Below, one piece after another: positions 12,156 through 30,972 of a stretch of 64,000 nt of DNA. The DNA comes from Leptonemataceae bacterium (GTDB lineage: Bacteria; Spirochaetota; Leptospiria; Leptospirales; Leptonemataceae). Where the stretch lies: contig OZ245742.1 in the NCBI GenBank assembly GCA_965227295.1, forward strand, positions 2,400,001 through 2,464,000. The letters are read 5' to 3'. The first letter of the stretch is position 1. Every line of letters begins with the position of its first letter. A program made the translations under genes and the position numbers. The notes under the pieces are model-generated. The model had not been told where the DNA came from, searched no databases, and worked only from the letters and a program-made list of their open reading frames with translations.

Positions 12156-13340
12156 TCAGATGTACTCGTCTTTGTCTTTCTTGATGACGAGTGCGCCTTC
12201 TTCGTCGAGGCGGCGCGCGGAGTTCAGAATATAGGCGCGGGCGTCGTTGATCTCGCGGATGGATAACGGGCCGCGGCGATCGATCTCTTCCAGAATGTCC
12301 GCCGCACGATTCTGAGACATGGAGTTGAAGAAGTGCCGGCGAATGTCGTCGCCGGCGCCGCGCAGGGCCGCGGCCATGATTTCGTCGTCGCCCACCCGGG
12401 CGATCAGGAGACGCATCTCTTTGTGGTCCAGGGCTGTAAGTTCTTCGAAGGTGTAGAGACGGTCGCGGACGTTGTCGACCAGGTTCGGAGCGGCCTTGCC
12501 CAGGACATCCAGGATCTCGTCCTCGTCCCGGCGTTCCATCTGGTTGAGGATGTTCGCCAGGGTATCCGCGCCGCCGACCTCGGAATAGATTTCGGACGTG
12601 CGTTTTTCGAACTTTTCGCGCAGCACCCGGGCCACGCGTTGCACCGCCTCCGGATGAATGCGCGCGGTCTTCGCGATGCGCAGGGCCGTCTCCGAACGAA
12701 AGTCCGCGGGTAGATGGCGCATGACCGCCGCCGCGATCTTCGGCTTGAGGAACGACAGCGCCACCGCGGCGATCTGGTGGTGTTCCTGGGACAGGGTCGA
12801 CGCCAGGACCGGCGCATCGATGCGTTCCAGGAATTCGAAGTCGCGGTAGAGATCGTGCTGAGAAATGCGTCCGATGATTTCATTCGCCACGTCTTCGCCG
12901 TGGCTTAACTGTAGAATTTTCTTCGCGGCCTCGGTGCCGCCGCGCACCGGCTCGTCGAAGTCTTTGACGACGGTATCAAAATGTGCGAGGATTGCTTTTT
13001 TTTCGTCAGCGCTGATGCGGTCAATGCCGGCCATCTCGCCGACCAGGCGCTCGATCTCCGCGGGCTCAAGCTCTTTGAGAATGCCGGCGGCCTGGTCCGG
13101 TCCCAGGGCCAGCAGCAATCGCGCCGCCCGGCCGATGCCGGGGAGGCGTTCCATGTCTTCGATGTTCGGCCGGCCCGCGAGACCCGACGGACCACTGCCG
13201 CGGACCTGGGCGCGCAGGGCATTCAGTAAGCCGCCTTCGCCGACCGTGAGGTCCACGTTGGAACCAGTTTGCTTGCCGGATTTGGCGGACTGGCCCGCGC
13301 CGGCCTTGCCGCCCTGGGATTTCTTGCGCGCCGCTGCCAT
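12156..13340 (-). CDS. fliG: Flagellar motor switch protein FliG (stand-alone copy)
   Basis: AARLLLALG, GG..AAKKIL, EHHQIAAVALS, GGADTLANILN, YTFEEL, NSMSQNRA. Confidence 0.9.
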   Translation of the reverse strand: MAAARKKSQGGKAGAGQSAKSGKQTGSNVDLTVGEGGLLNALRAQVRGSGPSGLAGRPNIEDMERLPGIGRAARLLLALGPDQAAGILKELEPAEIERLVGEMAGIDRISADEKKAILAHFDTVVKDFDEPVRGGTEAAKKILQLSHGEDVANEIIGRISQHDLYRDFEFLERIDAPVLASTLSQEHHQIAAVALSFLKPKIAAAVMRHLPADFRSETALRIAKTARIHPEAVQRVARVLREKFEKRTSEIYSEVGGADTLANILNQMERRDEDEILDVLGKAAPNLVDNVRDRLYTFEELTALDHKEMRLLIARVGDDEIMAAALRGAGDDIRRHFFNSMSQNRAADILEEIDRRGPLSIREINDARAYILNSARRLDEEGALVIKKDKDEYI

Positions 13341-13427: not shown

Positions 13428-14156
13428 CTACTTCTCATCTTTCCGTATATTCTTCCCCGTCTCACAGTACGCTTGCAACGGGCACTCCCCACACTTCGGA
13501 TTTCGCGGCCGGCAAACCAACGCGGACAGATCGATGATGGCCAGGTTCAAGGCCTGGCAGTGTTTCGAGTCCACGAACCGATCGGCCAGATGAAGGATGT
13601 CCCTGTCGCGGCGCGACTCGGCGTGATGAGGCAGGCCGTGCACGCGCGCGATGAAGCGCGCCACGTTCGCGTCCACGGCCGCCACACGCTCGTTCCACAG
13701 GCGAGTGCGAATCATGGCCCCGGAGTACGGTCCGACGCCTGGAATCGCTTCGAGATCGTCGCCGCGCCGCGGTCCGCCGGGTCCGTAGTGATCGCGGAGG
13801 TAGTGCAGGGTTTCGCGCATTTGTTTGCCGCGCCAGTGGAGGCCCAGGGGTTTCAGCATGCGTTCCACGCGCGACCAGGGAATCTCCAGGGCCTCGCCTG
13901 GCGTGCGAAACGATTCGGTGAAGTCCGCGTAGACCCGTGCGGCCTGATCGGCCCGGGTACGTCGGAGCATCATTTCGGCCATCAATAAATGAAACCAGTT
14001 GCCGGTCTTGCGCCAGGGATAGTCGCGTCCGGCCTCGCGAAACCATTGCAGCAATCGTCGGCGCAGCTCCCGCAGATGCGGGGTGATGTCTCGTTTTACG
14101 GCCGCCGTCGCGTTGCGGGGTGACGTTTTTTTGTTTCCATCTTCGCGGCGTCCCAT
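13428..14156 (-). CDS. HhH-GPD DNA glycosylase with [4Fe-4S] FCL motif, Mig (T:G mismatch)-like
   Basis: RDYPWR, EMMLRRT (MutY has LQQT), IPGVGPY, VDANV, CRPRNPKCGECPLQAYC; no C-terminal MutT-like domain. Confidence 0.8.
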   Translation of the reverse strand: MGRREDGNKKTSPRNATAAVKRDITPHLRELRRRLLQWFREAGRDYPWRKTGNWFHLLMAEMMLRRTRADQAARVYADFTESFRTPGEALEIPWSRVERMLKPLGLHWRGKQMRETLHYLRDHYGPGGPRRGDDLEAIPGVGPYSGAMIRTRLWNERVAAVDANVARFIARVHGLPHHAESRRDRDILHLADRFVDSKHCQALNLAIIDLSALVCRPRNPKCGECPLQAYCETGKNIRKDEK

Positions 14157-14234: not shown

Positions 14235-16025
14235 ATGACCGATCATCCTTTCACCAGTATGGACTCCGCTTCGTACCATTCCGATCGCTCCGGTCGCATT
14301 CTGGTCGTGGACGATAATCCTGCGGGGCGTCAGCTTTTGGTACGGCGGCTCACTTCTCTGGGCTACGAGGTCGACAGCGCCGAAAGCGGTCAGGAGGCCA
14401 TCGACGCCGTCGACCGCAAGGGTTATGATCTGGTGCTGCTGGACATCATCATGCCGGACATGTCCGGCATGGACGTCCTCCAGGTCCTCCGCGCCACTTA
14501 TTCGGAGATCGAGTTGCCGGTCATTATGGTTTCGGCCCTCGACGAAAGTTCGAATATTGCGGAGGCGCTGAACCACGGCGCCAACGATTACATTACCAAG
14601 CCCATCGACGTCATCATCGCCCGCGCACGCATTCGTACGCACCTGCGCCTCAAGCGTGCCGAAGAAGCCGTGCGCCGCGTGGACGCTTCCACCGGTCTCG
14701 CCAACAAGCTCCTGTTCACCGAACGTTGCAACCAGGCCTTTGCGTCCGCGCGGGAATTCGAAGGCGAGTTTACCGTGATGGTCTTCGGGGTGGATCGTTT
14801 CGAGCAATTCATGGAGTCCCTGGGCCTGGGCTCCGAAGAAGAGTTCGCCATGCTCGTGGCCGAACGTCTGCGCAAGGTCGTCCGTCAGGCGGATACCATC
14901 GCCCGGTTGTCGCGCCAGGACTTTGCCGTGTTGTTTCAGGACGGCCCGCAATCGCCGTCGGTACTGCGCGCCGTCGAAGAAATTCAAAACGGGCTGCGGG
15001 AACCCTTCGTCGTGGCCGGCAAAGAAATCACCAGCGGCGTGAGCGCCGGCGTGGCCTTCTACGCACCGAACAAACACTACGAGCGCGCCGAAGACGTGGC
15101 CCGGGACGCCACCATCGCCCGCAATCGCGCCCGGGACCTGGGCGGAGATCGTTCCGTCATTTTCGACGGCGAGATGCACGCCGCCGCCAGTCGTTTGTTG
15201 CAAACGGAGATCGATTTGCGCGCGGCCTTACAAAAGAACGAGCTCGTTGTATTTTATCAGCCCATCGTTTCGGCCGCCGACGGATCCGTGAACGGTTTTG
15301 AAGCGTTGATTCGCTGGAAGCATCCGCATCGCGGTCTGGTCTCGCCGGGAGATTTCATACCCCTGGCCGAGGAGACCGGGTTGATCATTCCCCTGGGCGA
15401 GTACGTGCTCACCGAGGTCTGTCGCCGGTTGAGGCAATGGCAGGGTTCACCGCTGGAGCGGCTCTTCGTGGCGGTGAACGTCTCCGCCCGGCAGTTCATG
15501 GACGCGGCCCCGCTTCGACGCATCAAAGACATTCTTCGCGAACACAAGGACGTGCTGCCGCACCTTAAAATGGAAGTGACCGAAAGCACGGCCATGCACG
15601 ACCTCGACTACAGTCGCCGCACTCTGAACGACTTCCGGGAGATGGGCGTGAGCCTGAGCATTGACGACTTCGGCACCGGCTACTCATCGCTTACGATGCT
15701 CAAGCAACTGCCGATCCAGACCGTTAAGATCGATCGATCTTTCGTTAAGGATTTACGCGGCCGTGGCGACGACCGCGCCATCATCCAGGCGATTCTGGAA
15801 CTTTCGAAGACCCTGGGACTGAACGTCATTGCCGAGGGCGTTGAGGATGAGTGGCAGGTGCGTTTCCTGGGCGGCATTCGCTGCGACGAGTTCCAGGGAT
15901 TTCTGTTTTCGCCGCCGCTGCCCTTCGATGAGGCCGAGGTTTACGTGCAAAACGGCCGCCGGCTGCCCACGAGCGCCGCCGGAGACGGCGGCGCGGATGG
16001 TTCAGGCGATCTTGCGTCGGCGTGA
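14235..16025 (+). CDS. REC-GGDEF(degenerate)-EAL c-di-GMP phosphodiesterase response regulator
   Basis: REC (VVDD, LLDIIMP, KP); GGDEF position reads SRQDF; EAL motifs YQPIV, EAL, VNVS, EVTE, DDFGTGYSS, KID, AEGVE, QG intact. Confidence 0.9.
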   Translation: MTDHPFTSMDSASYHSDRSGRILVVDDNPAGRQLLVRRLTSLGYEVDSAESGQEAIDAVDRKGYDLVLLDIIMPDMSGMDVLQVLRATYSEIELPVIMVSALDESSNIAEALNHGANDYITKPIDVIIARARIRTHLRLKRAEEAVRRVDASTGLANKLLFTERCNQAFASAREFEGEFTVMVFGVDRFEQFMESLGLGSEEEFAMLVAERLRKVVRQADTIARLSRQDFAVLFQDGPQSPSVLRAVEEIQNGLREPFVVAGKEITSGVSAGVAFYAPNKHYERAEDVARDATIARNRARDLGGDRSVIFDGEMHAAASRLLQTEIDLRAALQKNELVVFYQPIVSAADGSVNGFEALIRWKHPHRGLVSPGDFIPLAEETGLIIPLGEYVLTEVCRRLRQWQGSPLERLFVAVNVSARQFMDAAPLRRIKDILREHKDVLPHLKMEVTESTAMHDLDYSRRTLNDFREMGVSLSIDDFGTGYSSLTMLKQLPIQTVKIDRSFVKDLRGRGDDRAIIQAILELSKTLGLNVIAEGVEDEWQVRFLGGIRCDEFQGFLFSPPLPFDEAEVYVQNGRRLPTSAAGDGGADGSGDLASA

Positions 16026-17096
16026 GCCGCTGCTCTTCGCTTTGCCCTTCGAGCCCTTTGCGGATTTTTCACTAACGTTACGCGAAGATGACTTAACCTG
16101 GCCGCGGGTTTGCAACGGGGTCTTTTGCACGTTTTCGCGACCGATGAGGGCTTCCATGACGCCGAAGGCCACGGCCTGGGCCACGGGCACCGCCACGGCG
16201 TTGCCGAACTGTTTGTAGGCCTGGGTGTCCGAGACGACGATGTCGTAGTCCTCGGGAAAACCCATGAGCCGCGCGCATTCTCGCGGCGTGAGCCGACGGG
16301 GGTTGCTGTTCTTCACGGGGACGAGAATCTCGGAGCCGTCTTTGTAATACCGTGCGGAAAGCGTGCGGGCGATGCCGTCCGGTTCCACCATGCCGAAGCC
16401 GAAACCGTGGCCGGCCTTGCGGTGTTTTTCTTTGTAGGCCTGCAAGTAATTCCAGAGCCGGTCGCTGAGGACGTAGCGCTCGTCGAACTTTTCTTCGAGG
16501 ATGTCGGCGATGCGCGGTTCACGTTCCCGGGCGAGTTCCGGAAAACGAAACGTGCGGGCCGCGGCCTTGTCGCGAAAACCGACCAGGAAGATGCGCTCAC
16601 GATTCTGAGGCAGAACCTTCGCCGCATTCAGGATACGGTAGTCCATGTAGTAGCCGAGTTCGTCGGCCAGGGTCCGCCGGATGATTTCAAAGGTGCGTCC
16701 GCCGTCATGATAGACGAGGTTCTTGACGTTCTCCAGAACGAACGCCTTCGGTCGCCGGTCGCGTAAAATGCGCGCGACTTCAAAGAAGAGCGTGCCCTGG
16801 GTTTTGTCGAGGAAGCCGTGGGCCCGGCCGAGGGCGTTCTTCTTGCTCACGCCCGCAATCGAAAAGGCCTGGCAGGGGAAACCCGCCGTAAGCACGTCGA
16901 AGTTCGGGATGTCCGTCGAGGCGACCTCCCGGATGTCCCCGGTGGGTTCGTCCCCGAAGTTGGCCGAGTAGGTCTTCCGGGCGAACCGGTCCCACTCGCT
17001 GGAAAATACGCACTGGAGTCCCAGGGATTCGAAGGCTAACCGGAAGCCGCCGATCCCGGCAAAAAGGTCTATAAAACGCATACCGCCGTTCCGCAT
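16002..17096 (-). CDS. dcm: DNA (cytosine-5)-methyltransferase, Dcm/M.EcoRII-like
   Basis: FAGIGG, GFPCQ, GVSKKNALGRAHGF, ENV, QNRERIF, TLSARYYKDGSEIL, RRLTPRECARLMGF, YKQFGNAV; start 17096 or 17081. Confidence 0.92.
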   Translation of the reverse strand: MRNGGMRFIDLFAGIGGFRLAFESLGLQCVFSSEWDRFARKTYSANFGDEPTGDIREVASTDIPNFDVLTAGFPCQAFSIAGVSKKNALGRAHGFLDKTQGTLFFEVARILRDRRPKAFVLENVKNLVYHDGGRTFEIIRRTLADELGYYMDYRILNAAKVLPQNRERIFLVGFRDKAAARTFRFPELAREREPRIADILEEKFDERYVLSDRLWNYLQAYKEKHRKAGHGFGFGMVEPDGIARTLSARYYKDGSEILVPVKNSNPRRLTPRECARLMGFPEDYDIVVSDTQAYKQFGNAVAVPVAQAVAFGVMEALIGRENVQKTPLQTRGQVKSSSRNVSEKSAKGSKGKAKSSGSRRRKIA

Positions 17097-17249
17097 CGTC
17101 ACTGTAGTATTAGAATCGGCCGGTTTCGCGATTTGCCCGCGCAAATTCCTGCGACCGCCGCCGCCGATTAAGATAGAGTCGTCCGTCATTCGGTTCATGT
17201 CATCCTCCCAACGCGCACACTATAGCACGGGGGTGTGACATTATTTGTT

Positions 17250-17435: not shown

Positions 17436-19978
17436 TTAAAGTCCCAGCTCGTTCATCTGGTATCTCAGCCGGTTGCGCTTCATGCCCAGCATTTCCGCGG
17501 CCTTCGTTTTGTTGCCGTTCGTCCGCCGCAGCGCGTCCTCGATCAGCGCCCGGGAGTAGGATTGCAGGGCCTCGTCGAAGTTCGGTGGTGTCGCGTTCAT
17601 GTCAGGGGCGGCCGCGGTGAATACCGCGGGCCGGCCGGAACTCAGGGCTGCGACGGGCGCCACGGCGGAGCGGGATGCCTCGCGGACGGACGCCGGCAGA
17701 TGCTCCACGCCGATGTGAGCCGGGTCCGCGCGGTCGGCGGCCAGGGCCTGCATCAACACGTTTTCGAGTTCACGGATGTTGCCCGGCCAGCGGTAGGTCA
17801 GCAGCGCGGCGAGGGCTCGATCGTCGGGTTCCACGGGAGCGAGCCCCGTTTCTTCGCAGAAGTTCTTCAGAATAAAATCCACGAGCACGGGAATGTCCCG
17901 GCTCCGTTCCCGGAGGGGTGGTACATGGACGTGCAGGACGTTGATGCGGTACAGCAAATCCTCGCGGAACGTGCCCGCCTGGACCATGGTCGGCAGGTCG
18001 CGGTTGGTGGCGAAGATGAAACGACAGTCCGCCGGGCGCATCTCGGTCCCGCCGACGGGATGATACTGTCGCTCCTGTAAGAGGCGCAGGAGCTTCGCCT
18101 GCATTTCCAGCGGCAGCTCGCCGACCTCGTCGAAGAAGAGCGATCCGCCCGCGGCCTCGGCGACGCGGCCGGCCCGGGCGTTGCGCGCGTCGGTGAAAGC
18201 GCCCTTCACGTGGCCGAAGATCTCATCTTCCCAGAGCGTCGCCGGCACGGCGGCGCAGTTCACCGCGACGAACGGTCCGGCATCCCGGGGCTGTGTTTGC
18301 GCTTCCTGATCATCGTCGTTCGCCGTGTTGTCGTTGGAAAAGTGGATGAGCCGGGCGACCAGTTCCTTGCCGGTTCCGGTTTCTCCGGTAATGAGGATGG
18401 GCCGCTCGAACTCAGCGTAACGATGGGTGCGGCGAATCACTTCGCGCATGGCCGGGCTGGCCGTTACCAGGTTGCGGTCGCCGACGGAATGGATGATGGT
18501 TTGAGACTCGTCGTCTCCTGCGATGATGCGTTCGATCTCGTCGATGTGCTCGCTGTACTCGGTGTAGCGGTCCCGGGCGTTCTTCAGTACCCGCAACATG
18601 CCGGCGAAGGATTTCGAGAGGGCTACGAGCTCATCCCCTTCGATGTGCGTTGTCTCGTCCGCGACGTCCGGCTGATTGCGGCGTAGTTGGCCGAGGAGGC
18701 GCCGCAGGGGACGCGTCACCGTTTCCCGAAAGAGCAACGGGAATACCACTAACATGAACACGGTTGATGCCAGTACGGCCAGGCAGTACTCCAGGGCGAC
18801 GGCGTGGATCCGCGCGCGATAGTTGTCGTAGCTGAAGCCGTACTCCCGGCTGTCGTCGCGAAAAAAGACGAACGGCCGGCCGGCGATCCAGCGATACGAG
18901 CGTTGGAGTTTTTGAATGGGCGGTGCGCCCACGGCCGGCGGCAGAGTGGATGCCGTTTCCGATAGGCCGGCGTCCGCGGTCCAGAGTTCGGCCAGGGACT
19001 CCCCGGCCTGAACGGCATCGCTCCGTTCGAAGACGACGCGCCCGCGGTCGGTGTTGTTGCCGGGAAGTTCGATGACATATTCCAGGATCGACGGGGCCAG
19101 ACGTTCCAGGGGAACGGCCGCTTCCAGCAACTGCCCGGCGACGTGCACGTCTTCCAGGCGTTCGCGGTTGTACTGCTGTTCTTCACGCTGAATGGCCCGC
19201 ATGCCCAGGATCGAGAGCAGGGACATGATGGCCACGAGGGAGATGCCCACCAGCTTTACAATGAACGAAGACGGTTCGCTGGAAGTGTTTAAGTAGAACA
19301 AAACGTAGAGCGAAAAGATCAGCAGGAAGCCGGAGTTCTCCAGGAGGTTCACCGTTTGTCGGGAGCCGAAGCCCAGGGTCAGCAATACAAACAAGATCGG
19401 GATGGCGAGTTCGAGCAACGTCAGTACAAAGAAGGCGAGCGCCGGGCGATTGAAGCGCGAGTTCCCCGAACCGCGCAGGGCCTGGCGGCCGAGTACGATC
19501 AGCCCCCAGACAAAAGTGATCGCAACCAACGCCGGAATGTACGCGGAGTAGTAGGTACTCTCGTAGTTGTGATTCTGAAAGTTGTAGCGTACTTCCGCGA
19601 GACTTGCGCGCACGGCGTAGTCGCCGAAGGCCAGCACCGCGGCCGCGGCGGTGACGAAGAGGACGATGCGCGCCTCCCGCGGCCAGGCCGGCGACGGCAA
19701 GCGGTAGGCGAACTGGATTTTGAAGATCATGCCGAACAGGACGGCGGCCGCGGCATACCAGCCGGCGGTGCCCCAGGGAGCGTTGATGGAAAAACCAAAG
19801 AGCGAGCCCAGGTTGTAGACGCTGAAGATCAAAAAGAACCCGGCGAGCCAGTAGGTGCGCGTGGTCTTCTTCGGCAGGGACAGCAGATAGAATGCGCTCA
19901 GCAGGGTGAACAGCGTCGGCGTTAACCGGCCGAACGAGCTGGCAGTGAGTGAGATCGCGTCGACAATGAGGAACATAT
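17436..19978 (-). CDS. Membrane-bound sigma-54-dependent enhancer-binding protein (multi-TM sensor, HAMP-like, AAA+, HTH)
   Basis: About 8 N-terminal TMs plus a further TM; GETGTGKE, GAFTDA, FFDEVGE, FREDLLYR, WPGNIRELEN, Fis-type HTH GNKTKAAEMLG; start approximate. Confidence 0.9.
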
Positions 19979-20103
19979 GCCGCCAGTTTTTTGCCGGTGC
20001 CCGAATCTCTGCCGCCAAAAATTCGTCGGTCAGTCTTTTTCTACATACAGGTGCGTCGCGTTGATGCGGTGCGTGTCTGTTTTTGCGCCAGGGATTGGAA
20101 GGG

Positions 20104-20338: not shown

Positions 20339-21172
20339 ATGAATTTGAAGAAACTCAGTTTGATGCTTGCGGCGTTCTTAATAGCCGGAAGCGCCGTGAG
20401 CCTCAGCGCCGCGGATTATACCATCTTCGTACACGGCCGCTCGGGCCAGAACCACTGCGGTACCGGGACGAGTGACAACAACAACTACTGGGGCTCCGCG
20501 AAGAACATCAATACTTCGACCACCAAATACTTCGTCGGTTACGACGGATCCTCGGACCCGCGGACGTGGGGGAATTGCCGCGCACAATCCAACATCAACA
20601 CGGTCTTCAATCAACGTTGCCGCGGTTCGAACAACTGCAAAGTGATCTGCCACAGCGCCGGTTGCTACGCCGTCGAGTACTTCCTCGATAAGACCTCCAC
20701 AAACTTCAACATCGACTTCGTGATGGCCTCGTCCAGCGCTGCCGGCGGATCGGAGCTGGCCAACCTGGCGTTCTGGGCCTGGGGCGGAATGGACAACGCC
20801 CTCAAGACCGGCAACGCCCGCGGTTCCTACAATCACAACGACATGAAAGGCGTCGGCATCTGGGCCATTGCCGGTTATCGTTCCCAGTGGTACGTGGACT
20901 GGATGCTGCCGGGTAAAGACGACGGCGCCGTGGCCCTGCACAGCACCTGCGGTCATCGTACCACCGGCTCGCACAGCAAGTGCAACCAGTCCCGCTACAG
21001 CTCGCACTTCATCTGGAGCGGCGGTTACAACAACAACAACGGCTGGAGCGGCGATCGCAAGGCTTACAACAAGACCCACACGGGCGACGGCAGTAACTCC
21101 ATCAACACGGCCATGAAGAAAGAATGGAACGACTGTAAGTCGACGACCATCAACGGCTTCCGCTGCAAATAA
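20339..21172 (+). CDS. Secreted Cys/Asn-rich alpha/beta-hydrolase (lipase/esterase-like)
   Basis: Signal peptide; IFVHG oxyanion motif, CHSAG nucleophile elbow, GGSELA, DDGAV; 10 Cys. Confidence 0.75.
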   Translation: MNLKKLSLMLAAFLIAGSAVSLSAADYTIFVHGRSGQNHCGTGTSDNNNYWGSAKNINTSTTKYFVGYDGSSDPRTWGNCRAQSNINTVFNQRCRGSNNCKVICHSAGCYAVEYFLDKTSTNFNIDFVMASSSAAGGSELANLAFWAWGGMDNALKTGNARGSYNHNDMKGVGIWAIAGYRSQWYVDWMLPGKDDGAVALHSTCGHRTTGSHSKCNQSRYSSHFIWSGGYNNNNGWSGDRKAYNKTHTGDGSNSINTAMKKEWNDCKSTTINGFRCK

Positions 21173-21472: not shown

Positions 21473-21653
21473 AAAACAGATTACTTGATGTTTTTTAGTA
21501 AAGGTCGCTCCGCCGGAACTAAAAAATACGGCAATCTGCTTTAAGGAAATAGTGATTAAAGACTAGAACGGGTAGATCACAGGTCAAATCACAACAGAGG
21601 TAACCACCATGAACGCAACGGCCTCCCGACACATCAAGTTAAACACCCCCGCT

Positions 21654-22025
21654 ATGGAATCCGCAAAATCCATTTTGATCATCGACGACTCCGCCTCCAT
21701 CCGCAAACTCGTTAGCATCGCTCTCGGCGGGCGGGGCTACGAACTCATTGAAAGCGTGGACGGTGCCGAAGGTCTCGACCTCGTGCGCAGTCGGAGCGTG
21801 GACCTGATCATCTGCGACGTCAACATGCCGAACCTGGACGGTATCTCGTTCCTGCAGAAAATTCGCGAAATCGACGCGCACCGTTTTACGCCGGTCATCA
21901 TGCTGACTACGGAATCCCAGGAAGCGCTGAAAGAGCAGGGCCATGCGGCCGGCGCCCGCGCCTGGATCGTCAAACCGTTTCAGGCGGAGCAGCTCGTGGC
22001 TGCAGTCGAACGTCTTCTGGTGTGA
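21654..22025 (+). CDS. cheY: Chemotaxis response regulator CheY
   Basis: IIDDS, CDVNMP, MLTTES, WIVKPF; first gene of the che operon; start may be 21609. Confidence 0.9.
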   Translation: MESAKSILIIDDSASIRKLVSIALGGRGYELIESVDGAEGLDLVRSRSVDLIICDVNMPNLDGISFLQKIREIDAHRFTPVIMLTTESQEALKEQGHAAGARAWIVKPFQAEQLVAAVERLLV

Positions 22026-22138: not shown

Positions 22139-22540
22139 ATGAGTTTCCTGGAGATAGAAGATCGGAGCACGGGCGAGCGTTTTGTTCGTGTTCGCGGTGC
22201 CATGGTCATACGCCATGCTGCAAATCTGGCGGAAGAGTGGAAGACTGCCCGGGTCGGAGTCGATAATCTAATCGTCGATCTTTCCGGTGTCAGCGAGCTC
22301 GATAGCTCGGGTGTGCAGTTGCTCGTCGCTTTGAAAAAAGAATCGCTGGCTTCGGGAACATCGTTCAAACTCGTGCAGCACTCTCCGGCGGTTCTTTCCG
22401 TTTTCGCGCTCTACGGACTCGCCGCGTTTTTCGGCGACCGCATTCGACTCAAGTCGGGTGAGCGTGATGCCTACGGTTTTCTCTACGGGCTGCGACGTGG
22501 CAATTATGGATCTATCCGAAGCGAGAGACGTTTTTCTTGA
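22139..22540 (+). CDS. STAS domain (anti-anti-sigma-like) protein
   Basis: VDLSGVSELDSSGVQLL motif; lies between cheY and cheA. Confidence 0.8.
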   Translation: MSFLEIEDRSTGERFVRVRGAMVIRHAANLAEEWKTARVGVDNLIVDLSGVSELDSSGVQLLVALKKESLASGTSFKLVQHSPAVLSVFALYGLAAFFGDRIRLKSGERDAYGFLYGLRRGNYGSIRSERRFS

Positions 22541-24593
22541 TGAATGTGCCGAGTTGTTGGAGCGCATGGAGCAATGCCTGCTCGCCCTGGACGAAGATCC
22601 TGGTGACGACGAGGCCGGCCGCGCGCTCTTTCGGGCCGTGCATACCATCAAAGGTTCAGCCGGCGTCTTCGGCTTCAGCCACATCGAAGACTTCACCCAC
22701 GACCTGGAAAACCTCCTCGATCTTGTGCGCTCCGGCTCCGTTCCCGTGGAACCGGAACTGGTGCGCCTCTTTCTGGATTGCCGCGATCACATCGGCGTGC
22801 TGCTCGGTCTCATAGATGCTTCCGGTGTCGTGCATGCGGCGGGCACCGAGACCGCGGCCCGGGGCACCGTACTCATGCAACGCGTACGCGAGCGGCTCCC
22901 CGCTACGAAAGAAGATTCTTCTATAGAAGAGAGCGCAGGAAAGACCGCGGACAGCGCCGCGCATGCCGCCGCCGAAACGCACTGGCGCCTGAGCCTGGAA
23001 TTTCAACCGGACGTGTTTCGCCACGGCCTGGATCCGTTGCCGTTCGTTCGTTATCTGCGTGAAATCGGCACCATCCGCGACGTCATTACACACACTGATC
23101 GTGTGCCGACCCTGGAGCAGCTCGATCCCGAAAGCTGCGTGCTGGACTTCGAGATCCTGTTTACCGGCGCCGTCACCGAAGCACAGCTCCGGGAGGCCTT
23201 TGAGTTCGTTGAGCACGATTGCAAGATTCGCATTGAACGTGTTACGGAAGACGCGGTGAAGGATGAGGCCGCCGCCCCGAAGTCAGCCGGCGCAAGCCGC
23301 GTGCCGATCAGCGGCGACTCGTTCAGCGCCCTCGCGGCGGCCGGGCATCGGGAGAGTCGTTCCTTTCGCGTGGACGCGCGCAAGCTGGATCACCTGGTCA
23401 ACCTGGTCGGGGAGTTGGTCATCTCCACGGCGCACCTGGCCCAGGTCGCGGACTTCGACGAGAACTCCGGCGCGGCAAGCATTACGGATCAAGTATTGAA
23501 GCTCGTCGGCGAAATTCGTGACGGCGCCTTCGGCCTGCGCATGGTGCCCATCGGCGGCATCTTCAGTCGCTTTCGCCGTGCCGTGCACGATCTCTCCGCG
23601 GAGTTGCAGAAATCCGTCCGCCTGGAGACTCACGGCGGCGACACCGAACTGGATCGCAACATCGTCGAACGCCTCACCGATCCGCTCATGCACATCGTTC
23701 GTAATGCCGCGGACCACGGCCTGGAATCTCCCGCCGAACGCGCGCAGGCCGGCAAGGACCCCGAGGGTCGCATCACCCTGCACGCCTTCGGTGAGACCGG
23801 TGAGATTGTGATCGAAGTCAAGGACGACGGCCGCGGTCTCGACGCCGCCGCCATTCGACGCAAAGCCGAGAGCCAGGGGCTGGTCGCTCCGGAGCAGGAA
23901 CTCACGCGTGAAGAAGTGCTGCGTCTGATCTTTCATCCCGGCATGTCCACGGCGGCCAACGTTACGAACATTTCCGGCCGCGGCGTGGGCATGGACGTGG
24001 TGTTGCGGAACATCGAAGCGTTGCGCGGTCGGGTGGAGCTGGACTCCGAACCCGGCAAAGGGACCACTGTGCGTATCATCCTGCCGCTGACCCTGGCCAT
24101 CATCGACGGTTTTCTGGTGCGTGCCGGCGAAAGTCACTTCGTGATTCCCCTGGACATGGTGATGGAGTGCGTGGAGTTCGAAGAGGCCGGTACGGCCGCA
24201 CGCGGCGTGGTGAACCTGCGCGAAGAGGTGCTGCCCTTCGTTCGATTGACTTCGTTCTTCGAACTCACACCGCCGCCGCCGGGGGCGCGGACAAGCCTGG
24301 TCGTGGTCCGCCACGGCGCGCGCCGGGCCGGCCTGGTCGTCGAAGACCTGCTCGGCGAGTTTCAATCCGTCATTAAATCTCTGGGACCGCTCTTCGAGAA
24401 CGTGCGCGGCCTGAGCGGTTCTACGATCCTGGGCAACGGTGCCATCGCCCTTGTCCTCGACGTACCGACGTTGCTGGATCTGCTCGAAAACGAAGACGCG
24501 TCTTCGATGCGCGGCGGCGTGGATCTCTACAGTGTGCGCGAGGGATTGCTACGGGAACTGGAAGCGCCGGATGATTCGACACGGGGAGACTGA
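22506..24593 (+). CDS. cheA: Chemotaxis histidine kinase CheA
   Basis: Hpt [61 protein letters not shown]-terminal CheW domain. Confidence 0.96.
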
Positions 24594-24597
24594 GGCC

Positions 24598-27500
24598 ATG
24601 CGACGACTGAGTGTTACGCAACGAAAGTTAGTGATGAGCGCGCTGTGTGCGGCGGTGCTGGTCTGCGCTTTTACCGTGTCGGCCGACGTCACGGCGAACT
24701 GGGGCTACACCGGCGCGAATGGACCGCGGCACTGGGCGAAACTGAGCGACGAGTTCTCCGTATGCGCGAACGGACGGCGCCAGTCACCGATCGATTTACC
24801 GGAAGCGTCCGCGGGCACGTCCGCGGGTTCCGCGCCCATGCTTGCATTTACGTACGAAGCAAGCGATCTGGAAATCATCAACACCGGCCACACCATCCAG
24901 GCGAACGTGCCGCCGGGCAACAGCCTGCGCGTCGGTGATGATGTGTACGAACTCGTGCAGTTTCATTTTCACAGTCCGTCCGAGAACCAGGTCGACGGCC
25001 GCTCGTATCCCCTGGAGATGCACCTCGTCCATCGTAACGAGGACGGGGACCTGGCCGTGGTCGGCGTGCTGTTCGAAGACGGCCCGGCCAATGCGGAACT
25101 CGCCGGGATCTGGGAGGACCTGCCGGAGGATGCCGGGGCTACCGTCGAAGTATCGCTGAACCCGGAGCAGCTTCTGCCGGCGGAGCGTTCGTTCTACCGG
25201 TTCGGCGGTTCGCTGACCACGCCGCCGTGCAGCGAAGGCGTAGACTGGTTTGTCCTGGCGGAACCGCGGACGATTTCCACCGGGCAAGCCCGGGCCTTCG
25301 TCGATTTGATCGGCGAAAACGCACGTCCGCCGCAGCCGCTCTTCGGCCGCACGATCACTTTCGTGAGCGACGGCACGGCCCGCCGTCTCGGTGAGGCGGA
25401 GCTGACACCGCAGGCCCCCGGACAGGATGCTCCGCATGAGCCCGCGGACGGCGAGGGCGATTGGGGCCTGTACGCCTTTATCGCCGGCGTCCTTATTTTT
25501 GTTGCAATCTTTCTTTTTTTGATGATGCGTAAATCTGGAGACTCTATGAACTTTCTTGATCGTTTTACTCTACGTACGAAGATTCTCGGCCTCGTAATGC
25601 TGCTCATATTGATGAACGCCGCGGTAGCCGCTTACGTCATGCTGACGCTGAACAGCCTGGGCCGAGAACTCGTGGAAATCGCTGAGCGGGACCTGCCGCT
25701 GAGTGATGCCGTCGCCGCGGTGACGGAGAAGCAGCTGGAACAGGCTGTGACCTTTGAACGTACCCTGCGTTTTACGGATCGTCCGGCGCAGTTTCGCGAA
25801 AACGAACAGGCGTTCCTCAAACTCAACCGCCAGGTGGAAAAGGGCCTCGCTGAGACGCGCCAGTCCGTGGATGGTTTTTTGAACGGGCGATTGTCCTCCC
25901 GGGCCCGAACAGTTTTTGAAGATGCGTCCGTGCGCCTGGCGGAGATTGCCGAACTGCACGAGGACTACGGCGATCTCGGCACGGCGATGCTCGCGGCCGG
26001 CGGGGAGGCAGGTACGGCGGACGACCGACGTGTGGAAGAACTACAAACTACTGTTGACAAAATGTTAACGTCCCTCCAGCGCGATCTGGCGAAGTTTACC
26101 GAGGCCACCGCCCGGGACGCCGAGGAACACGAGCGAACCGCCTTTATCGTGGTGAGCGTTCTCTCCGTGGCGGTCTTGGTCCTCGGGCTGCTGCTGGGCC
26201 TGGGCATTGCACGGAACGTACTGCGCCAGCTCGGTGGAGATCCGGCGCTGCTGGCGACCATCGCGGAGCGAGTCGCCGGGGGCGAGTACGACGCCGCCGC
26301 GGAAGTAGTCGCTCAGGATAGTAGCGATGACGGAGACAACGAGGCCCGGGGGCTCATGGGATCCATGGTAACCATGGCCGCCAATCTCAAGGCGAACGTC
26401 GGTGAGATGCTGCGCGTCCAGGTGGCCCTCGATAACTCTTCGACGAACGTAATGATCTGCGATCCCGAGTTCACCATCATGTACATTAACAACGCCATGC
26501 GCAGTTTGTTCCAGCGGGCCGAGGCGGACATTCGCAAAGACCTGCCGCAGTTTTCGGCGGACTCCGTGCTCGGTTCGTCCATAGATCGATTCCACAAGAA
26601 CGTGGCGCACCAGCGCGGGGTCCTGAACAATCTGGCCGGCACGCATCGCACGACCATTCAGCTCGGCGGGCTCACTGTCGATTTTACTGTCAACGCGATC
26701 GTGGACTCCGACGGCAAGAAGTACGGCTTTGTCATGGAATGGAGGGACCGCACGGACGAGGTCGCCGTGGAACGCGAAGTGGAAGCCATTGTTACCTCCG
26801 CTTCGCGCGGGGATTTCACCGGTCGCATCGACATGCAGGGCAAACACGGATTCTTTGAGCGTCTCAGTGAAGGCATCAACGCGCTCATGGAAACCAGCGA
26901 TACCGGCCTAAGTGAAGTTGTGCGCGTGTTAACAGCCATGGAGGCCGGCAATCTTACGGATCGCATCGACAACGAGTACGACGGGACCTTCGGTCGTCTC
27001 AAGGACGCCTCCAATAATACCCAGGAGCGTCTCTCCGACGTAATCGTCAACGTGCGTTCGAATGCCGAGGCCCTGGCCGGCGCCTCGGAGGAAGTGAGCG
27101 CGACGGCGCAGTCCATGAGCCAGGGGGCCTCCGAGCAGGCGGCCAGCGTGGAAGAGACCGGCGCGTCCCTCGAAGAGATGACGGCCAGCATCACGCAAAA
27201 CGCGCAGAACGCGAAGGCGACGGAGGACATTGCCCTCAAGACCGCCACGTCCAGCGAGGAGGGCGGCAAGGCCGTCGCCGAAACCGTGGAAGCCATGCGC
27301 CGCATTGCGGAGAAGATCTCCATTATTGAAGAAATCGCGTATCAAACGAATCTCCTGGCGCTGAACGCCGCCATTGAAGCGGCCCGGGCCGGGGAACACG
27401 GCAAGGGTTTTGCGGTCGTAGCTACCGAAGTTCGTAAGTTAGCCGAGCGTTCCCAGGTGGCGGCGCAGGAAATCGGCGGCCTGGCTTCGAACAGCGTGGA

Positions 27501-27891
27501 CATTGCCGAACGCGCGGGCACGTTGTTGGATGAGATCGTGCCGAGCATTCGCAAGACCGCGGACCTGGTGCAGGAGATTACCGCGGCGTCCCAGGAACAG
27601 AACACGAACGTCGAACAGATCAATGCGGCGGTAGGCCAACTCGACAAGCTGGCCCAGAGCAACGCCTCTTCCGCCGAAGAACTGGCAAGTACCGCGGAAG
27701 AACTTTCCGGCCAGGCCCAGCAGTTGCAGCACATGATGGAGTTTTTCAAACTCAAAGCGGAAGCGGCCGGTAACGCCGGCACGATTCCCGGCTCTCCCGC
27801 CACGCCGGCGGCGAAACCGGAACCGAAGCCTGCGCCGCGCCTGGCTCCGACGCCGCCGGAATTTCAGGAGGACGATTTTGAGCGCTTCTGA
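24598..27891 (+). CDS. Chemoreceptor with N-terminal alpha-carbonic anhydrase, periplasmic helical domain, HAMP, Aer2-type PAS and MCP signalling domain
   Basis: Signal peptide; CA motifs [41 protein letters not shown]; 3 TMs; [55 protein letters not shown]-terminal DFERF. Confidence 0.92.
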
Positions 27892-28462
27892 GGCCGCGGA
27901 AACCCGGCGCGGCCGGGAAGAACAGTTTCTCACGTTTCACCTGGGCGACGAGGTCTACGGCATTGAAGTCCTGCGCGTGAAAGAGATTCTCCAGTACTCC
28001 GGCATCACGAAGGTGCCGCGGACGCCGCCGTACATCCAGGGTGTCATCAATCTCCGGGGCAGCGTGGTGCCGGTGGTGGATTTGCTGCACTTGTTTGCGG
28101 AAGCGTCCGTGAGCGTGGGACGCAAGACCTGTGTGATCATTGTGGAGGTTCGCTCCCAGGCGCAGGAGGGCGGCATTGAAGCGGGCATCATCGTGGACGC
28201 CGTGGACCAGGTACTGAACGTCAACACGACTTCGATCGAAGCGGCCCCCGGTTTTGGAACGAAGGCGGGTCCGAAGTTTATTCGCGGCATGGCGCCGCGC
28301 AACGCCGCCAGCGACGCCGCCGAATCCTCCGGGGACGAGGCGGGCGGCGACGCCGACCGACACAAGGACGAGGGCTTCGTGATTTTGCTGGACCTGGACA
28401 AAATCCTGGTGCCGGAACATCTGCAGGCCCTGGGCGATGCGAACGCCGTGTCGCAGGACTAA
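27878..28462 (+). CDS. cheW: Chemotaxis coupling protein CheW
   Basis: [33 protein letters not shown]. Confidence 0.92.
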
Positions 28463-28484: not shown

Positions 28485-29327
28485 ATGATGACGCAGTCCC
28501 CCGCCACGTCTCCCGCGGCCGAGCTCAGCGACGCCGACTTTTCCCTGTTCCGGACGCTCATGGCCGTCGAGGCCGGGGTTCACCTCGGAGACAACAAGAA
28601 GACCCTGGTCGTTTCCCGCCTCGGGCGTCGCGTGCGGGACCTGGCCGGAGGGAACTTCCGTGCGTACCACTCGCTCTTAAAGGATGATCCCGTGGAACTG
28701 CGCTTCGCCGTGGACGTGCTGACCACGAACGAAACGTTTTTCTTTCGTGAGCCGCAGCACTTTCAGTTCCTGGGACGGGAGATCCTGGCGCGGGCCTCCG
28801 GCAAACTGCGCATCTGGTCGGCGGCGTGTTCCACCGGCGAAGAACCCTACAGCATCGCCCTGGTCTGCGCGGACCGCGGTGTGTCGGCGCAGATCCTGGC
28901 CACGGATGTGAACGCCTCGGTCCTGGGCAAGGGCCGAGCGGCCTTGTATCCCCTGGAACGGAGCAGGGAGTTGCCCGCGTACTACTTAAAGAAATTCGGC
29001 CTGCGCGGCGTGCGTTCCATGGGACACTACTTCACGTTCACGCCGGAGGTTCGTCGCATGGTAACCTTTGATCGAATGAACCTTGTGGCCGGTGCGCTGC
29101 CGGGTCAGGAATTTGACTGTATCTTTCTCAGAAACGTAATGATCTACTTCTCCCGGGAGACCAAGGAGCAGGTACTGCGCCGCCTGGCAGGGTGTTTGAA
29201 GATCGGCGGTTACCTGATGATCGGTCACTCGGAGACCCTGCACGGCCTCGGCGCGAACACCGGTAATCGCAAGGCTTTCGGCTTCCAACTGGTGCGGCCG
29301 GCGATCTACCAACGGGTTGTGGAATGA
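28485..29327 (+). CDS. cheR: Chemotaxis methyltransferase CheR
   Basis: TTNETFFFRE, IWSAACSTGEEPYS, FLRNVMIYF, GHSE. Confidence 0.95.
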   Translation: MMTQSPATSPAAELSDADFSLFRTLMAVEAGVHLGDNKKTLVVSRLGRRVRDLAGGNFRAYHSLLKDDPVELRFAVDVLTTNETFFFREPQHFQFLGREILARASGKLRIWSAACSTGEEPYSIALVCADRGVSAQILATDVNASVLGKGRAALYPLERSRELPAYYLKKFGLRGVRSMGHYFTFTPEVRRMVTFDRMNLVAGALPGQEFDCIFLRNVMIYFSRETKEQVLRRLAGCLKIGGYLMIGHSETLHGLGANTGNRKAFGFQLVRPAIYQRVVE

Positions 29328-29848
29328 ATCATACGAGGCCGGAGTTCATAGTCGAAATCTTTTTGCAGCCCGGGGAGTTCCTCTGGGGCGACGAGAGCAA
29401 TCGCATTCGGACCCTCCTCGGCTCGTGCGTGAGCCTGACTTTCCATCATCCGAACTTAAACATCGGCGGGATGTGCCATTTTATGCTTCCTTCCCGGGAG
29501 CGAAAGCTGGATGAAGGCCTTTCGGGGCGTTACGCCGACGAGTGTCTGCTTTTGTTTATTGAAGCCATTCAACGCAGCGGGACGCGACCCCGGGACTACG
29601 AGGTCAAGATGTTCGGCGGCGGGAACATGTTCCCGACCCTGGCGGAACAGAAGGCCGGCGTCATCGGTGAGCGCAACGTAAACACGGCGCGCGATCTCAT
29701 TGCCCGGCACGGCCTCAAGCTGGTGGCCGAAGACGTCGGCGGCGTGGTACACCGGCGACTGCTCTTCGACGTATGGAGCGGGGACGTCTGGCTCAAACGC
29801 CTGGATCCGGTGCGCGAATCCCCGGCAGCGGTGGCACGGCCGTCTTAA
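29324..29848 (+). CDS. cheD: Chemoreceptor glutamine deamidase CheD
   Basis: TLLGSCV, GGMCHFMLP, KMFGGGNMF, IGERN, EDVGG. Confidence 0.93.
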   Translation: MNHTRPEFIVEIFLQPGEFLWGDESNRIRTLLGSCVSLTFHHPNLNIGGMCHFMLPSRERKLDEGLSGRYADECLLLFIEAIQRSGTRPRDYEVKMFGGGNMFPTLAEQKAGVIGERNVNTARDLIARHGLKLVAEDVGGVVHRRLLFDVWSGDVWLKRLDPVRESPAAVARPS

Positions 29849-29871: not shown

Positions 29872-30972
29872 ATGGCAGATGAAGGCGGCATACGAGTCCT
29901 GGTGGTGGACGATTCGGCCGTGGTCCGCCGAACCATGACCGAAATTCTCCAGGACGACCCCGGCATTCGCAGCATCGAAACCGCGGCGGATCCCATCTTT
30001 GCCCGACAGAAGATGCAGGTCTTTCGCCCGGACGTCATGATCCTGGACATCGAGATGCCGCGCATGGACGGCCTCACGTTCTTAAAGCAGATCATGTCCG
30101 AGTCGCCGCTACCGGTGCTCATCTGTTCCACGCTCACCCAGGCCGGCGCCCCGGCGACGCTCGAAGCCATGCGCTACGGCGCCCTGGGGGTGATCGCGAA
30201 GCCCGGCCTGGGGTTGAAAGGTTATCTCGAAGATGAGGCCGATCGGCTGCGTCGTTCCGTGCGCCAGGCCGCCGGGGTCCGACTGAAGTCGCGTTCCGGC
30301 ACGGGTTCGCTGAAGGCGGAAGCCACCGCGGCGCGCGCCTTCGAGGCAAGCGCGGCAAAGAAGACGCCGGCAGTGAGCGGGCGCAGCGGATACGATTTGA
30401 TTGCCATGGGTACGTCGGCGGGCGGCACCACGGCCCTGGAGGTGGTGCTGAGCGCCCTACCGGTACAGTGCCCGGGCATCGTGGTGGTGCAGCACATGCC
30501 GGCGAAGTTCACCGCGGCCTTCGCGGACCGCCTGAACGCGCACAGCCCGCTGGATGTCAGCGAAGCGAAGGACGGCGACGAGGTCCGGCCGGGTACGGCG
30601 CTCATTGCTCCCGGGGATCGGCACATGGTACTGCGCTCATCTTCGGCAGGTAAAAGTTACTCGGTGCAAATTAAGGACGGTCCGCCGATCAATCATCATC
30701 GTCCGTCGGTGGACGTGTTGTTTCGTTCCGTCGCGGTTACGGCGGGGCCACGGGCGTTGGGTGTGATCATGACGGGCATGGGCGACGACGGCGCCGCGGG
30801 TCTGGAAGAGATGCGCGACGCCGGCGCGTATACGATCGGTCAGGACGAGGCCTCGTGCACGGTCTACGGCATGCCGCGGGCCGCGTTCGAACGCGGGGCG
30901 GTGATGCAACAGGTGGCGCTGACTTCGATTCCGGCGGCGATTCTGCGCGCGTTGTATGCGGCGAAGGGCTGA
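29872..30972 (+). CDS. cheB: Chemotaxis methylesterase CheB (REC + esterase)
   Basis: VVDDS, LDIEMP; GTSAGG, VQHMP, HRPSVDVLF, TGMGDDGA, YGMP. Confidence 0.95.
   Translation: MADEGGIRVLVVDDSAVVRRTMTEILQDDPGIRSIETAADPIFARQKMQVFRPDVMILDIEMPRMDGLTFLKQIMSESPLPVLICSTLTQAGAPATLEAMRYGALGVIAKPGLGLKGYLEDEADRLRRSVRQAAGVRLKSRSGTGSLKAEATAARAFEASAAKKTPAVSGRSGYDLIAMGTSAGGTTALEVVLSALPVQCPGIVVVQHMPAKFTAAFADRLNAHSPLDVSEAKDGDEVRPGTALIAPGDRHMVLRSSSAGKSYSVQIKDGPPINHHRPSVDVLFRSVAVTAGPRALGVIMTGMGDDGAAGLEEMRDAGAYTIGQDEASCTVYGMPRAAFERGAVMQQVALTSIPAAILRALYAAKG

What the first reader, a model, noticed from the sequence alone, without database searches (positions are those of the whole stretch)
24598..27891. Chemoreceptor fusing an exported alpha-carbonic anhydrase to an Aer2-type heme-PAS receptor: candidate CO2/pH plus O2 sensing system
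Seen in sequence: one uninterrupted ORF encodes signal peptide, alpha-CA (~24700-25360), TM, short loop, TM, periplasmic helical domain, TM, HAMP, PAS (~26425-26754), HAMP, HAMP, MCP signalling domain. The CA keeps the three Zn-ligand His (QFHFH at 24964/24970, EMH at 25021), the proton-shuttle His (GHTIQ), the LTTPP Thr and the disulfide Cys pair. Established knowledge: alpha-CAs convert CO2 to HCO3- plus H+, and the PAS-HAMP-HAMP block resembles Pseudomonas aeruginosa Aer2/McpB. Inference: the topology puts the enzyme on the same outer side as the ligand-binding domain, so CO2 could be turned into a local pH or bicarbonate signal while the cytoplasmic PAS reads O2. I do not know of a characterised CA-chemoreceptor fusion but cannot confirm novelty.
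Basis: partly seen in the sequence, partly recalled or inferred. Interest (0 to 1): 0.92.

Follow-up and report, generated by a model that had tools for sequence, protein, structure and literature searches.

The report
Carbonic anhydrase tethered to oxygen chemoreceptor
One real gene joins a CO2-converting enzyme outside the cell membrane to a chemotaxis receptor with an oxygen-sensing heme domain inside; related bacteria have attached two unrelated CO2-converting enzymes at the same spot, which makes these receptors strong but untested candidates for bacterial CO2 sensors.

Summary
The ORF is real: 1097 aa, with no frameshift in two public assemblies that bridge the junction. It encodes a signal peptide, an alpha-carbonic anhydrase (CA) with an intact active site, a flexible linker, an extra TM helix and then a complete membrane-bound receptor: four-helix-bundle sensor, heme-type PAS, di-HAMP and 34H signalling domain. 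It sits in an F8-like che operon.

CA-receptor fusion is a family, not a one-off: 42 alpha-CA fusions. This scan noted that before in another genome (e1-3879117). New here:
- The unrelated beta-CA sits at the same position on the same receptor bodies in 97 of 120 proteins.
- Unfused CA genes lie directly upstream of receptor genes in 9 of 160 sampled loci.

The CA+PAS pairing is unique among the 139 fusions examined, and same-genus orthologues lack the CA. So dual CO2/O2 sensing is a local chimera, not the family's rule.

Best reading: the tethered CA turns CO2 into H+/HCO3- for the adjacent sensor domain; untested. An in-frame internal start may also yield a CA-less isoform. No description was found in ten literature searches; beta-CA appears only as a row in one supplementary domain table.

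The parts
21609..22025 (+). cheY (single receiver domain)
   Evidence: Pfam Response_reg
22139..22540 (+). STAS-domain protein
   Evidence: Pfam STAS/STAS_2
22458..24593 (+). cheA (Hpt, dimer, HATPase, CheW-like); its stop is 4 nt before the fusion gene
   Evidence: Pfam; ORF list
24598..27891 (+). CA-chemoreceptor fusion gene (P0001, 1097 aa)
24598..24684 (+). Sec-type signal peptide, residues 1-29 (read from sequence: basic start, hydrophobic core, V-S-A end; no predictor run)
24694..25365 (+). alpha-carbonic anhydrase domain; His123/125/142, His98, Glu129, Thr207, Cys56-Cys211 kept
   Evidence: model pLDDT about 90 and fold match 4XZ5/1KOQ
25366..25461 (+). flexible periplasmic linker (34 aa here, 18-243 aa in relatives)
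   Evidence: pLDDT under 50 at 265-289
25462..25527 (+). extra transmembrane helix that returns the chain to the cytoplasm
25537..25548 (+). GGAG plus in-frame ATG (Met317): relic or working internal start of the receptor half
25573..26217 (+). TM1 - periplasmic four-helix-bundle ligand-binding domain - TM2
   Evidence: model pLDDT 95.5; nearest folds Vc1313, McpS, PcaY_PP; atlas TarH/4HB_MCP_1 0.95
26224..26397 (+). divergent HAMP with an acidic insert in the connector (no Pfam hit)
   Evidence: sequence
26413..26763 (+). Aer2-type PAS; His666 (26593) and Trp715 (26740) align with the Aer2 E-eta His and I-beta Trp
26764..27033 (+). di-HAMP of the Aer2 core
27034..27762 (+). kinase-control (MCPsignal) domain, class 34H, with methylation-site-like EQ/EE pairs
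27874..27888 (+). C-terminal pentapeptide DFERF (xZxxZ pattern for CheR/CheB docking)
27878..28462 (+). cheW
28485..29327 (+). cheR
29324..29848 (+). cheD
29872..30972 (+). cheB

Best explanation
An enzyme-primed chemoreceptor. The CA is exported and stays tied to the receptor by a flexible linker and an extra membrane helix (shown as sequence anatomy). It is probably catalytically active (inferred from residues). It brings periplasmic CO2 into equilibrium with H+ and HCO3- far faster than the uncatalysed reaction, next to the four-helix-bundle sensor and, in a receptor array, as a dense enzyme patch (inferred). The bundle reads the product, proton or bicarbonate, and signals through TM2 and HAMP to CheA of the F8-like operon (inferred; ligand unknown). 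In this genome the module sits on a membrane-bound Aer2-core receptor whose heme PAS most likely reads O2 (by homology), so this one protein would integrate both inputs. The CA acts as a supplier of signal rather than as a mechanical lever, because the linker length is not conserved.
For: - Zn-ligand His triad intact in 41 of 43 alpha-CA domains aligned; Thr199- and Trp209-equivalents and both Cys in 43 of 43.
- Same signal-CA-linker-TM-loop-TM-sensor-TM layout in the alpha fusions (42 of 198 proteins held).
- The non-homologous beta-CA sits in the same slot in 97 of 120 proteins examined, 96 with C-[SA]-D-S-R and HxxCGA motifs, 35 with the same small sensor family. A large sensor (about 280 aa) occurs with both alpha (6) and beta (50) CA.
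- Unfused alpha-CA genes lie directly upstream of an MCP gene in 7 of 80 genome loci and 2 of 80 metagenome loci, 6 of them with this sensor family. Two are inside che operons in the same slot as here (L079: cheA-CA-MCP-cheW-cheR-cheD-cheB; L130), and CA genes lie inside che operons of two family relatives (L194, L027).
- PAS-di-HAMP matches Aer2 3VOL.
- Precedent for the logic: the CA-to-periplasmic-proton model proposed for PhoPR, itself unproven (PMC11895460 passages).
Against: - No activity, binding or taxis data.
- The sensor family is widespread without any CA (Colwellia's family; the same-genus orthologues). Its conserved residues do not differ between CA-linked and CA-free members.
- Nine relatives keep signal peptide, linker and extra TM but have no CA, so the scaffold does not need the enzyme.
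- P0001's own sensor is diverged from the family consensus (long branch; His 1.1% against 3.6%).
- The genome has a second, free-standing alpha-CA.
Confidence: 0.55

Rival explanations
1. Scaffold use. The receptor array only anchors an active CA at the cell pole, for periplasmic pH buffering or carbon capture. The sensor binds its own, unrelated ligand; enzyme and receptor share expression and location but not signal.
For: The sensor family occurs mostly without CA. Linkers vary from 18 to 243 aa. A CA-less isoform from Met317 is plausible. CA-less scaffolds exist.
Against: It does not explain why both CA classes recur on mainly two sensor families, nor why unfused CA genes sit in che operons. 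A lipid or single-TM anchor would do the job.
Confidence: 0.2
2. The CA domain is itself the sensor. It binds CO2/HCO3- and acts on the receptor by docking on the bundle or by changing dimer or array packing, as proposed for the CA-like domain of RPTP-gamma.
For: Precedent (PMC11215419 passages). One fusion, P0107, has lost His94-, Glu106- and His64-equivalents, and P0016 lacks His94 and His64. Some beta fusions carry two or three CA copies.
Against: 41 of 43 keep the full Zn triad, whereas RPTP-gamma is inactive. Two unrelated folds are unlikely to dock on the same bundle surface. The linker is unconserved and predicted disordered.
Confidence: 0.12
3. The CA protects or tunes another input. 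It keeps periplasmic pH steady around a pH-sensitive receptor so that the real signal (an organic ligand, or O2 at the PAS) is read without acid noise.
For: The sensor family is strongly acidic with conserved His (net -0.12 per residue). The PAS is intact.
Against: The acidic make-up is shared by CA-free members (-0.09). Most fusions have no PAS.
Confidence: 0.08
4. An incidental read-through or assembly artefact joined two neighbouring genes in this genome only.
For: T7 run with stops in both shifted frames just before Met317. Same-genus orthologues are unfused. P0024 looks like such an artefact: it has no TM between CA and receptor.
Against: Contigs from two runs bridge the site unchanged. 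A proper TM with a basic cytoplasmic loop is present. 41 other alpha fusions have the same join, including G019 in the same family and operon slot.
Confidence: 0.03

Closest known systems
Leptospira interrogans Aer2 (Orillard and Watts 2022; seen only through passages of PMC10107281 and PMC13401364)
   Same: Membrane-embedded Aer2 with a periplasmic domain and the PAS-di-HAMP-kinase-control core. 981-aa three-PAS receptors that fit this description sit in cheA-MCP-cheW-cheD operons of the sister family and share 65 of 117 PAS residues with P0001.
   Different: P0001 has one PAS, a different periplasmic domain (34 of 154, score 55), an extra TM and the CA.
Pseudomonas aeruginosa Aer2/McpB (PDB 3VOL, 4HI4)
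   Same: PAS-HAMP-HAMP block, E 1e-59; His and Trp hallmarks; C-terminal pentapeptide.
   Different: Soluble, class 36H, F7 system (PMC7184735 passages). P0001 is membrane-bound and 34H.
Four-helix-bundle chemoreceptor sensors (Vc1313 8BSA, PcaY_PP 6S18, McpS 2YFA, Tar/Tsr)
   Same: Fold of the periplasmic domain (Z about 15, rmsd 1.9-2.4).
   Different: 8-13% identity, and designed helical bundles score as high, so the ligand cannot be inferred. These entries are sensor domains only; I know of no appended enzyme in them (recalled).
Periplasmic bacterial alpha-CAs (T. crunogena 4XZ5, P. profundum 5HPJ, N. gonorrhoeae 1KOP)
   Same: 42-48% identity, same fold and active site.
   Different: Free-standing enzymes, not receptor domains.
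RPTP-gamma/zeta of animals
   Same: Extracellular alpha-CA-like domain on a transmembrane signalling protein implicated in CO2/HCO3- sensing (PMC11215419 passages).
   Different: Its CA domain is inactive (two Zn His lost) and the output is a phosphatase.
H. pylori TlpA; M. tuberculosis PhoPR with CA; SulP-CA fusions
   Same: Bicarbonate as a chemoreceptor signal (PMC8406319 passages). Proposed CA-generated periplasmic protons read by a sensor (PMC11895460 passages). A CA fused to a partner membrane protein (reference title in PMC1635747).
   Different: TlpA is a dCache receptor without CA; in PhoPR the CA is a separate protein and the link is unproven; SulP is a transporter.

Membership tests
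alpha-carbonic anhydrase | Pfam PF00194 above cut-off and the CA fold | tested here: met
   145 bits against 27; Foldseek E 4e-21 to 4XZ5
alpha-carbonic anhydrase | Three Zn His, gatekeeper Thr/Glu, proton-shuttle His (human CA II numbering recalled) | tested here: met
   His123, His125, His142, Glu129, Thr207, His98
alpha-carbonic anhydrase | CO2 hydration activity | not testable with these tools
   needs an assay
Aer2 core receptors | PAS directly followed by di-HAMP and kinase-control domain (definition in PMC10107281) | tested here: met
Aer2 core receptors | E-eta His and I-beta Trp in the PAS | tested here: met
   His666 and Trp715 align with those of 3VOL; which 3VOL residues these are is recalled
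Aer2 core receptors | Binds b-type heme and O2 | not testable with these tools
   needs spectroscopy
Classical F7 Aer2/McpB | Soluble, no periplasmic domain, class 36H | tested here: not met
   three TM helices; 7 residues missing in each arm against Tsr, so 34H; definition from PMC7184735; NCBIfam Aer2 model 364 bits against cut-off 1200
F8 chemosensory class | 34H receptor; cheA, W, Y, B, R with cheD | tested here: met
   definitions from passages
F8 chemosensory class | CheA falls in the F8 class by class-specific HMM or phylogeny | not tested
   no class models on hand; STAS as an F8 mark is recalled
4HB ligand-binding domains (4HB_MCP_1/TarH) | Four-helix bundle between two TM helices | tested here: met
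4HB ligand-binding domains (4HB_MCP_1/TarH) | Pfam PF12729 or PF02203 hit | tested here: inconclusive
   no hit for P0001; hits near the cut-off in relatives
RPTP-gamma-type CA-like sensor domain | Catalytically dead CA (Zn His lost) | tested here: not met
   triad intact

The most novel reading that the evidence does not exclude
Bacteria have an undescribed class of chemoreceptor with a built-in catalytic antenna. A tethered CA, recruited twice from unrelated enzyme families, converts CO2 into a signal read by the adjacent sensor, giving CO2 taxis. This protein adds a heme PAS, so that one receptor compares CO2 outside with O2 inside. A retained internal start sets the ratio of enzyme-bearing to plain receptor in the array.
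Probability: 0.4. Interest if true: 0.92.

Novelty: new variant of a known kind. Interest (0 to 1): 0.8.

Why it matters
I found no bacterial chemoreceptor for which CO2 sensing through a built-in enzyme has been shown (ten searches; the library lacks most subscription journals). Convergent use of alpha- and beta-CA in one slot, plus unfused operon pairs, points to the chemistry (CO2, HCO3-, H+) as the selected input. That names a candidate ligand for two orphan sensor-domain families and gives direct tests, including in a cultured strain (Desulfopila aestuarii DSM 18488, P0201). This particular protein would be a single-chain CO2/O2 integrator, useful for understanding how bacteria position themselves in respiratory gradients and as a biosensor part.

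Tried and rejected
- Frameshift artefact at the T7 run: rejected.
- Expression: no RNA holder listed.
- Origin of the alpha-CA module: unresolved. FastTree scattered the fused CAs, while IQ-TREE grouped 26 of 33 with SH-aLRT 85 (15 near-copies plus P0024 and P0107 left out, 24 free-standing CAs chosen by hand). AU tests rejected neither a single fused clade (p 0.59) nor a sister tie to the genome's own free CA (p 0.58). I claim neither one nor many alpha origins.
- PAS region of the full-length model: unusable (pLDDT under 50), because no other row of the alignment has a PAS.
- Fusions: none found in a 401-genome phylum sample around G442, 301 genomes of G444's phylum or 201 of G443's family. 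The 891-906-aa open frames are same-frame CA and MCP genes separated by stops. The sister family f2 had no alpha-CA in 75 genomes searched.
- The G-x-M count for beta fusions (24 of 93) was not position-anchored and is not used; by eye most lack an internal Met.
- Promoter and terminator scans were at chance level.
- Sensor residues specific to CA-linked receptors: none seen.
- Names for cluster members could not be looked up.
- The LiAer2 paper itself is not held.
- Literature searches with no description of the fusion; two searches were for comparators. Most hits were seen only as listings. In PMC8547431, supplement 4 was held cut, and bioRxiv supplements are closed, so a catalogue entry for alpha-CA could have been missed.
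Full report
1. Observation. The frame 24598-27891 is open and the domains are as stated. The gene starts 4 nt after the cheA stop, inside cheY-STAS-cheA-receptor-cheW-cheR-cheD-cheB. The genome is one 5.94-Mb contig. Its family's fused relatives include a protein labelled Leptospiraceae (P0021), so I take it as a Leptospirales spirochaete; this is an inference. A T7 run at 25514-25520 was the obvious artefact risk, since a one-base slip either way gives a stop. Contigs of runs X1 and X2 cross it unchanged. Both runs are of one study and X1 may be the source sample; run X3 laid nothing.

2. Anatomy. In order: signal peptide, alpha-CA (33-256), 34-aa linker, extra TM, basic cytoplasmic loop, TM1, periplasmic bundle, TM2, divergent HAMP, PAS, di-HAMP, signalling domain, Pro/Ala tail and DFERF. 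The CA matches solved bacterial alpha-CAs by sequence and fold. The sensor folds as a four-helix bundle (pLDDT 95.5). Its nearest natural matches are Vc1313, McpS and PcaY_PP at 8-13% identity, with designed bundles scoring as high, so the ligand is unknown. The PAS-di-HAMP aligns without gaps to Aer2 3VOL and keeps His666 and Trp715. PMC10107281 (passages) calls the E-eta His a defining feature and describes L. interrogans Aer2 as membrane-embedded with a periplasmic domain. The signalling domain lacks seven residues in each arm against Tsr, so it is 34H, the F8 class (PMC7184735 passages).

3. The fusion is a family. Of 198 proteins held after searches have alpha-CA plus a signalling domain (three truncated), all with the CA-linker-TM-TM-sensor-TM order; only P0001 has a PAS. 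The Zn triad is intact in 41 of 43 domains aligned (41 fusions plus P0022 and P0024; the fragment P0101 left out). In the own family, 22 of 42 genomes have an alpha-CA and three have it in a long frame: G000, G019 and G022. G019 has it in the same operon slot, and G021 has cheY-STAS-cheA-CA cut by a contig end. Two of 401 phylum genomes besides G000 and 5 of 331 genomes in the class of G1146 have long CA frames; all were confirmed as fusions. One of these equals P0014, labelled Thermodesulfobacteriota. I had found the family before reading it and treat it as a repeat, not as support.

4. Convergence. Among receptors with the same sensor family I found beta-CA in the CA slot (P0105, P0129, P0143). 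A search with P0105 gave 457 hits. Of 120 proteins examined (the 118 new ones listed, plus P0105 and P0129), 97 have beta-CA plus a signalling domain (three truncated), 96 keep the active-site motifs, 35 carry the same small sensor and none has a PAS. A large sensor of about 280 aa occurs in 6 alpha and 50 beta fusions. They come from sulfate reducers and planctomycetes among others, including cultured Desulfopila aestuarii DSM 18488. Alpha- and beta-CA are unrelated folds (established knowledge), so the shared feature is the reaction. These include Colwellia (cheA-CA-MCP-cheW-cheR-cheD-cheB), Arcobacter, Ca. Thiodiazotropha and Ideonella. Six of the nine MCPs have this sensor family.

5. Results against a simple story. 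The same-genus genomes G001 and G002 have the same operon with a receptor of the same sensor, PAS and signalling domain (58 of 175, 54-61 of 117 and 193-195 of about 240 identical) but no CA. The sensor family is common without CA, and its conserved residues do not separate CA-linked from CA-free members (the CA-free set includes fragments). Nine relatives keep signal peptide, linker and extra TM with no CA. None of 84 other Aer2-core relatives has a CA family. So the CA is a plug-in module and CA+PAS is a local combination. Trees could not settle where this CA came from.

6. Internal start. Met317 matches the start of the CA-less orthologues and follows GGAG by 5 nt; the genome's 16S tail is the standard one. 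Its pairing energy, -6.4 kcal/mol, is reached by 4.8% of 2075 internal ATGs sampled, but also by three other internal Met of this gene. Among 37 alpha fusions that could be anchored (of 42), 15 have Met in the four-residue window, against about 10% expected. Of 11 fusions with DNA, 5 have a Shine-Dalgarno-like motif plus a start codon there, 1 has the motif without a start, and 5 have neither. The loop Gly is GGA in 6 of the 8 genes that have one (1.7 expected, P about 0.001), although synonymous sites between those six genes are saturated (20-43% same codon). The pattern was chosen after seeing the data, and kin are not independent. It suggests that a CA-less isoform is made in some lineages (my estimate 0.4); in this genome it may be only a relic of a recent join.

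7. Mechanism. Shown: anatomy, residues, recurrence, convergence, operon context. Inferred: activity, ligand, coupling. Uncatalysed CO2 hydration takes seconds or more (recalled), longer than CO2 stays in the periplasm and longer than a chemotactic comparison. A CA packed with the receptors would make CO2 changes visible as H+ or HCO3- on that time scale. The extra TM is not joined to the HAMP, and linkers run from 18 to 243 aa, which favours product delivery over leverage. Rivals are scaffold use, direct binding as in RPTP-gamma, pH buffering and artefact. The output of F8 systems is itself poorly known (bioRxiv 10.64898/2026.05.11.724241 passages), so 'taxis' is not assured.

8. Novelty. Ten searches returned no description of a CA-chemoreceptor fusion; most hits were seen as listings only. 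PMC8547431 lists Pro_CA as a putative ligand-binding domain in 4 receptors in two supplementary tables, with no mention found in the main text and no alpha-CA entry in the files held, one of which was cut. JGI auto-names some of these proteins 'methyl-accepting chemotaxis protein/carbonic anhydrase'. bioRxiv 2025.06.24.661292 has no mention in its main text. The parts are known kinds; the combination appears catalogued at most and unstudied. Verdict: real, new variant of a known kind, interest 0.8.

Noticed in passing
P0083, P0092, P0093, P0096, P0098, P0135, P0138, P0156, P0162: Three-TM chemoreceptors with a signal peptide and a low-complexity periplasmic tail but no enzyme; P0139 keeps only the start of a beta-CA. 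Possibly CA-deleted forms, or a tail with its own role.
   Followed up: partly
P0254, P0256, P0257, P0259, P0262, P0272: Tandem beta-CA domains fused to PF07396 (a phosphate-selective porin family, name recalled) in proteins of about 1000 aa: a possible CA-porin fusion.
   Followed up: no
P0038, P0042-P0048, P0050-P0053: A recurring 630-650-aa secreted protein with N-terminal PF21027/PF22352/PKD-like domains and a C-terminal alpha-CA.
   Followed up: no
P0035; P0040-P0041; P0055: alpha-CA fused to amidohydrolase, fasciclin or flavodoxin-type domains (family names recalled from the accessions).
   Followed up: no
P0107: CA-receptor fusion with a degenerate active site and a 243-aa His-rich linker: a candidate pseudo-enzyme sensor.
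   Followed up: partly
window 13428-14156 and 16002-17198 (-): HhH-GPD glycosylase and C5 cytosine methylase on the same strand, separated by a REC-GGDEF-EAL gene on the other strand; resembles a methylase plus mismatch-glycosylase pair (recalled).
   Followed up: partly
window 12156-13340 (-): A FliG paralogue away from other flagellar genes, about 8 kb upstream of the che operon.
   Followed up: partly
window 17436-20018 (-) and 20339-21172 (+): Multi-TM sigma-54 activator divergent from a secreted Cys/Asn-rich 277-aa protein with no Pfam or NCBIfam hit.
   Followed up: partly
L210 (G1162:C9:216000-234000): The CA fusion lies in a run of five receptor genes within one che cluster.
   Followed up: no
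G000:C1:5461710-5462585: A second, free-standing alpha-CA; the genome has about 22 receptor genes and four cheA clusters.
   Followed up: partly
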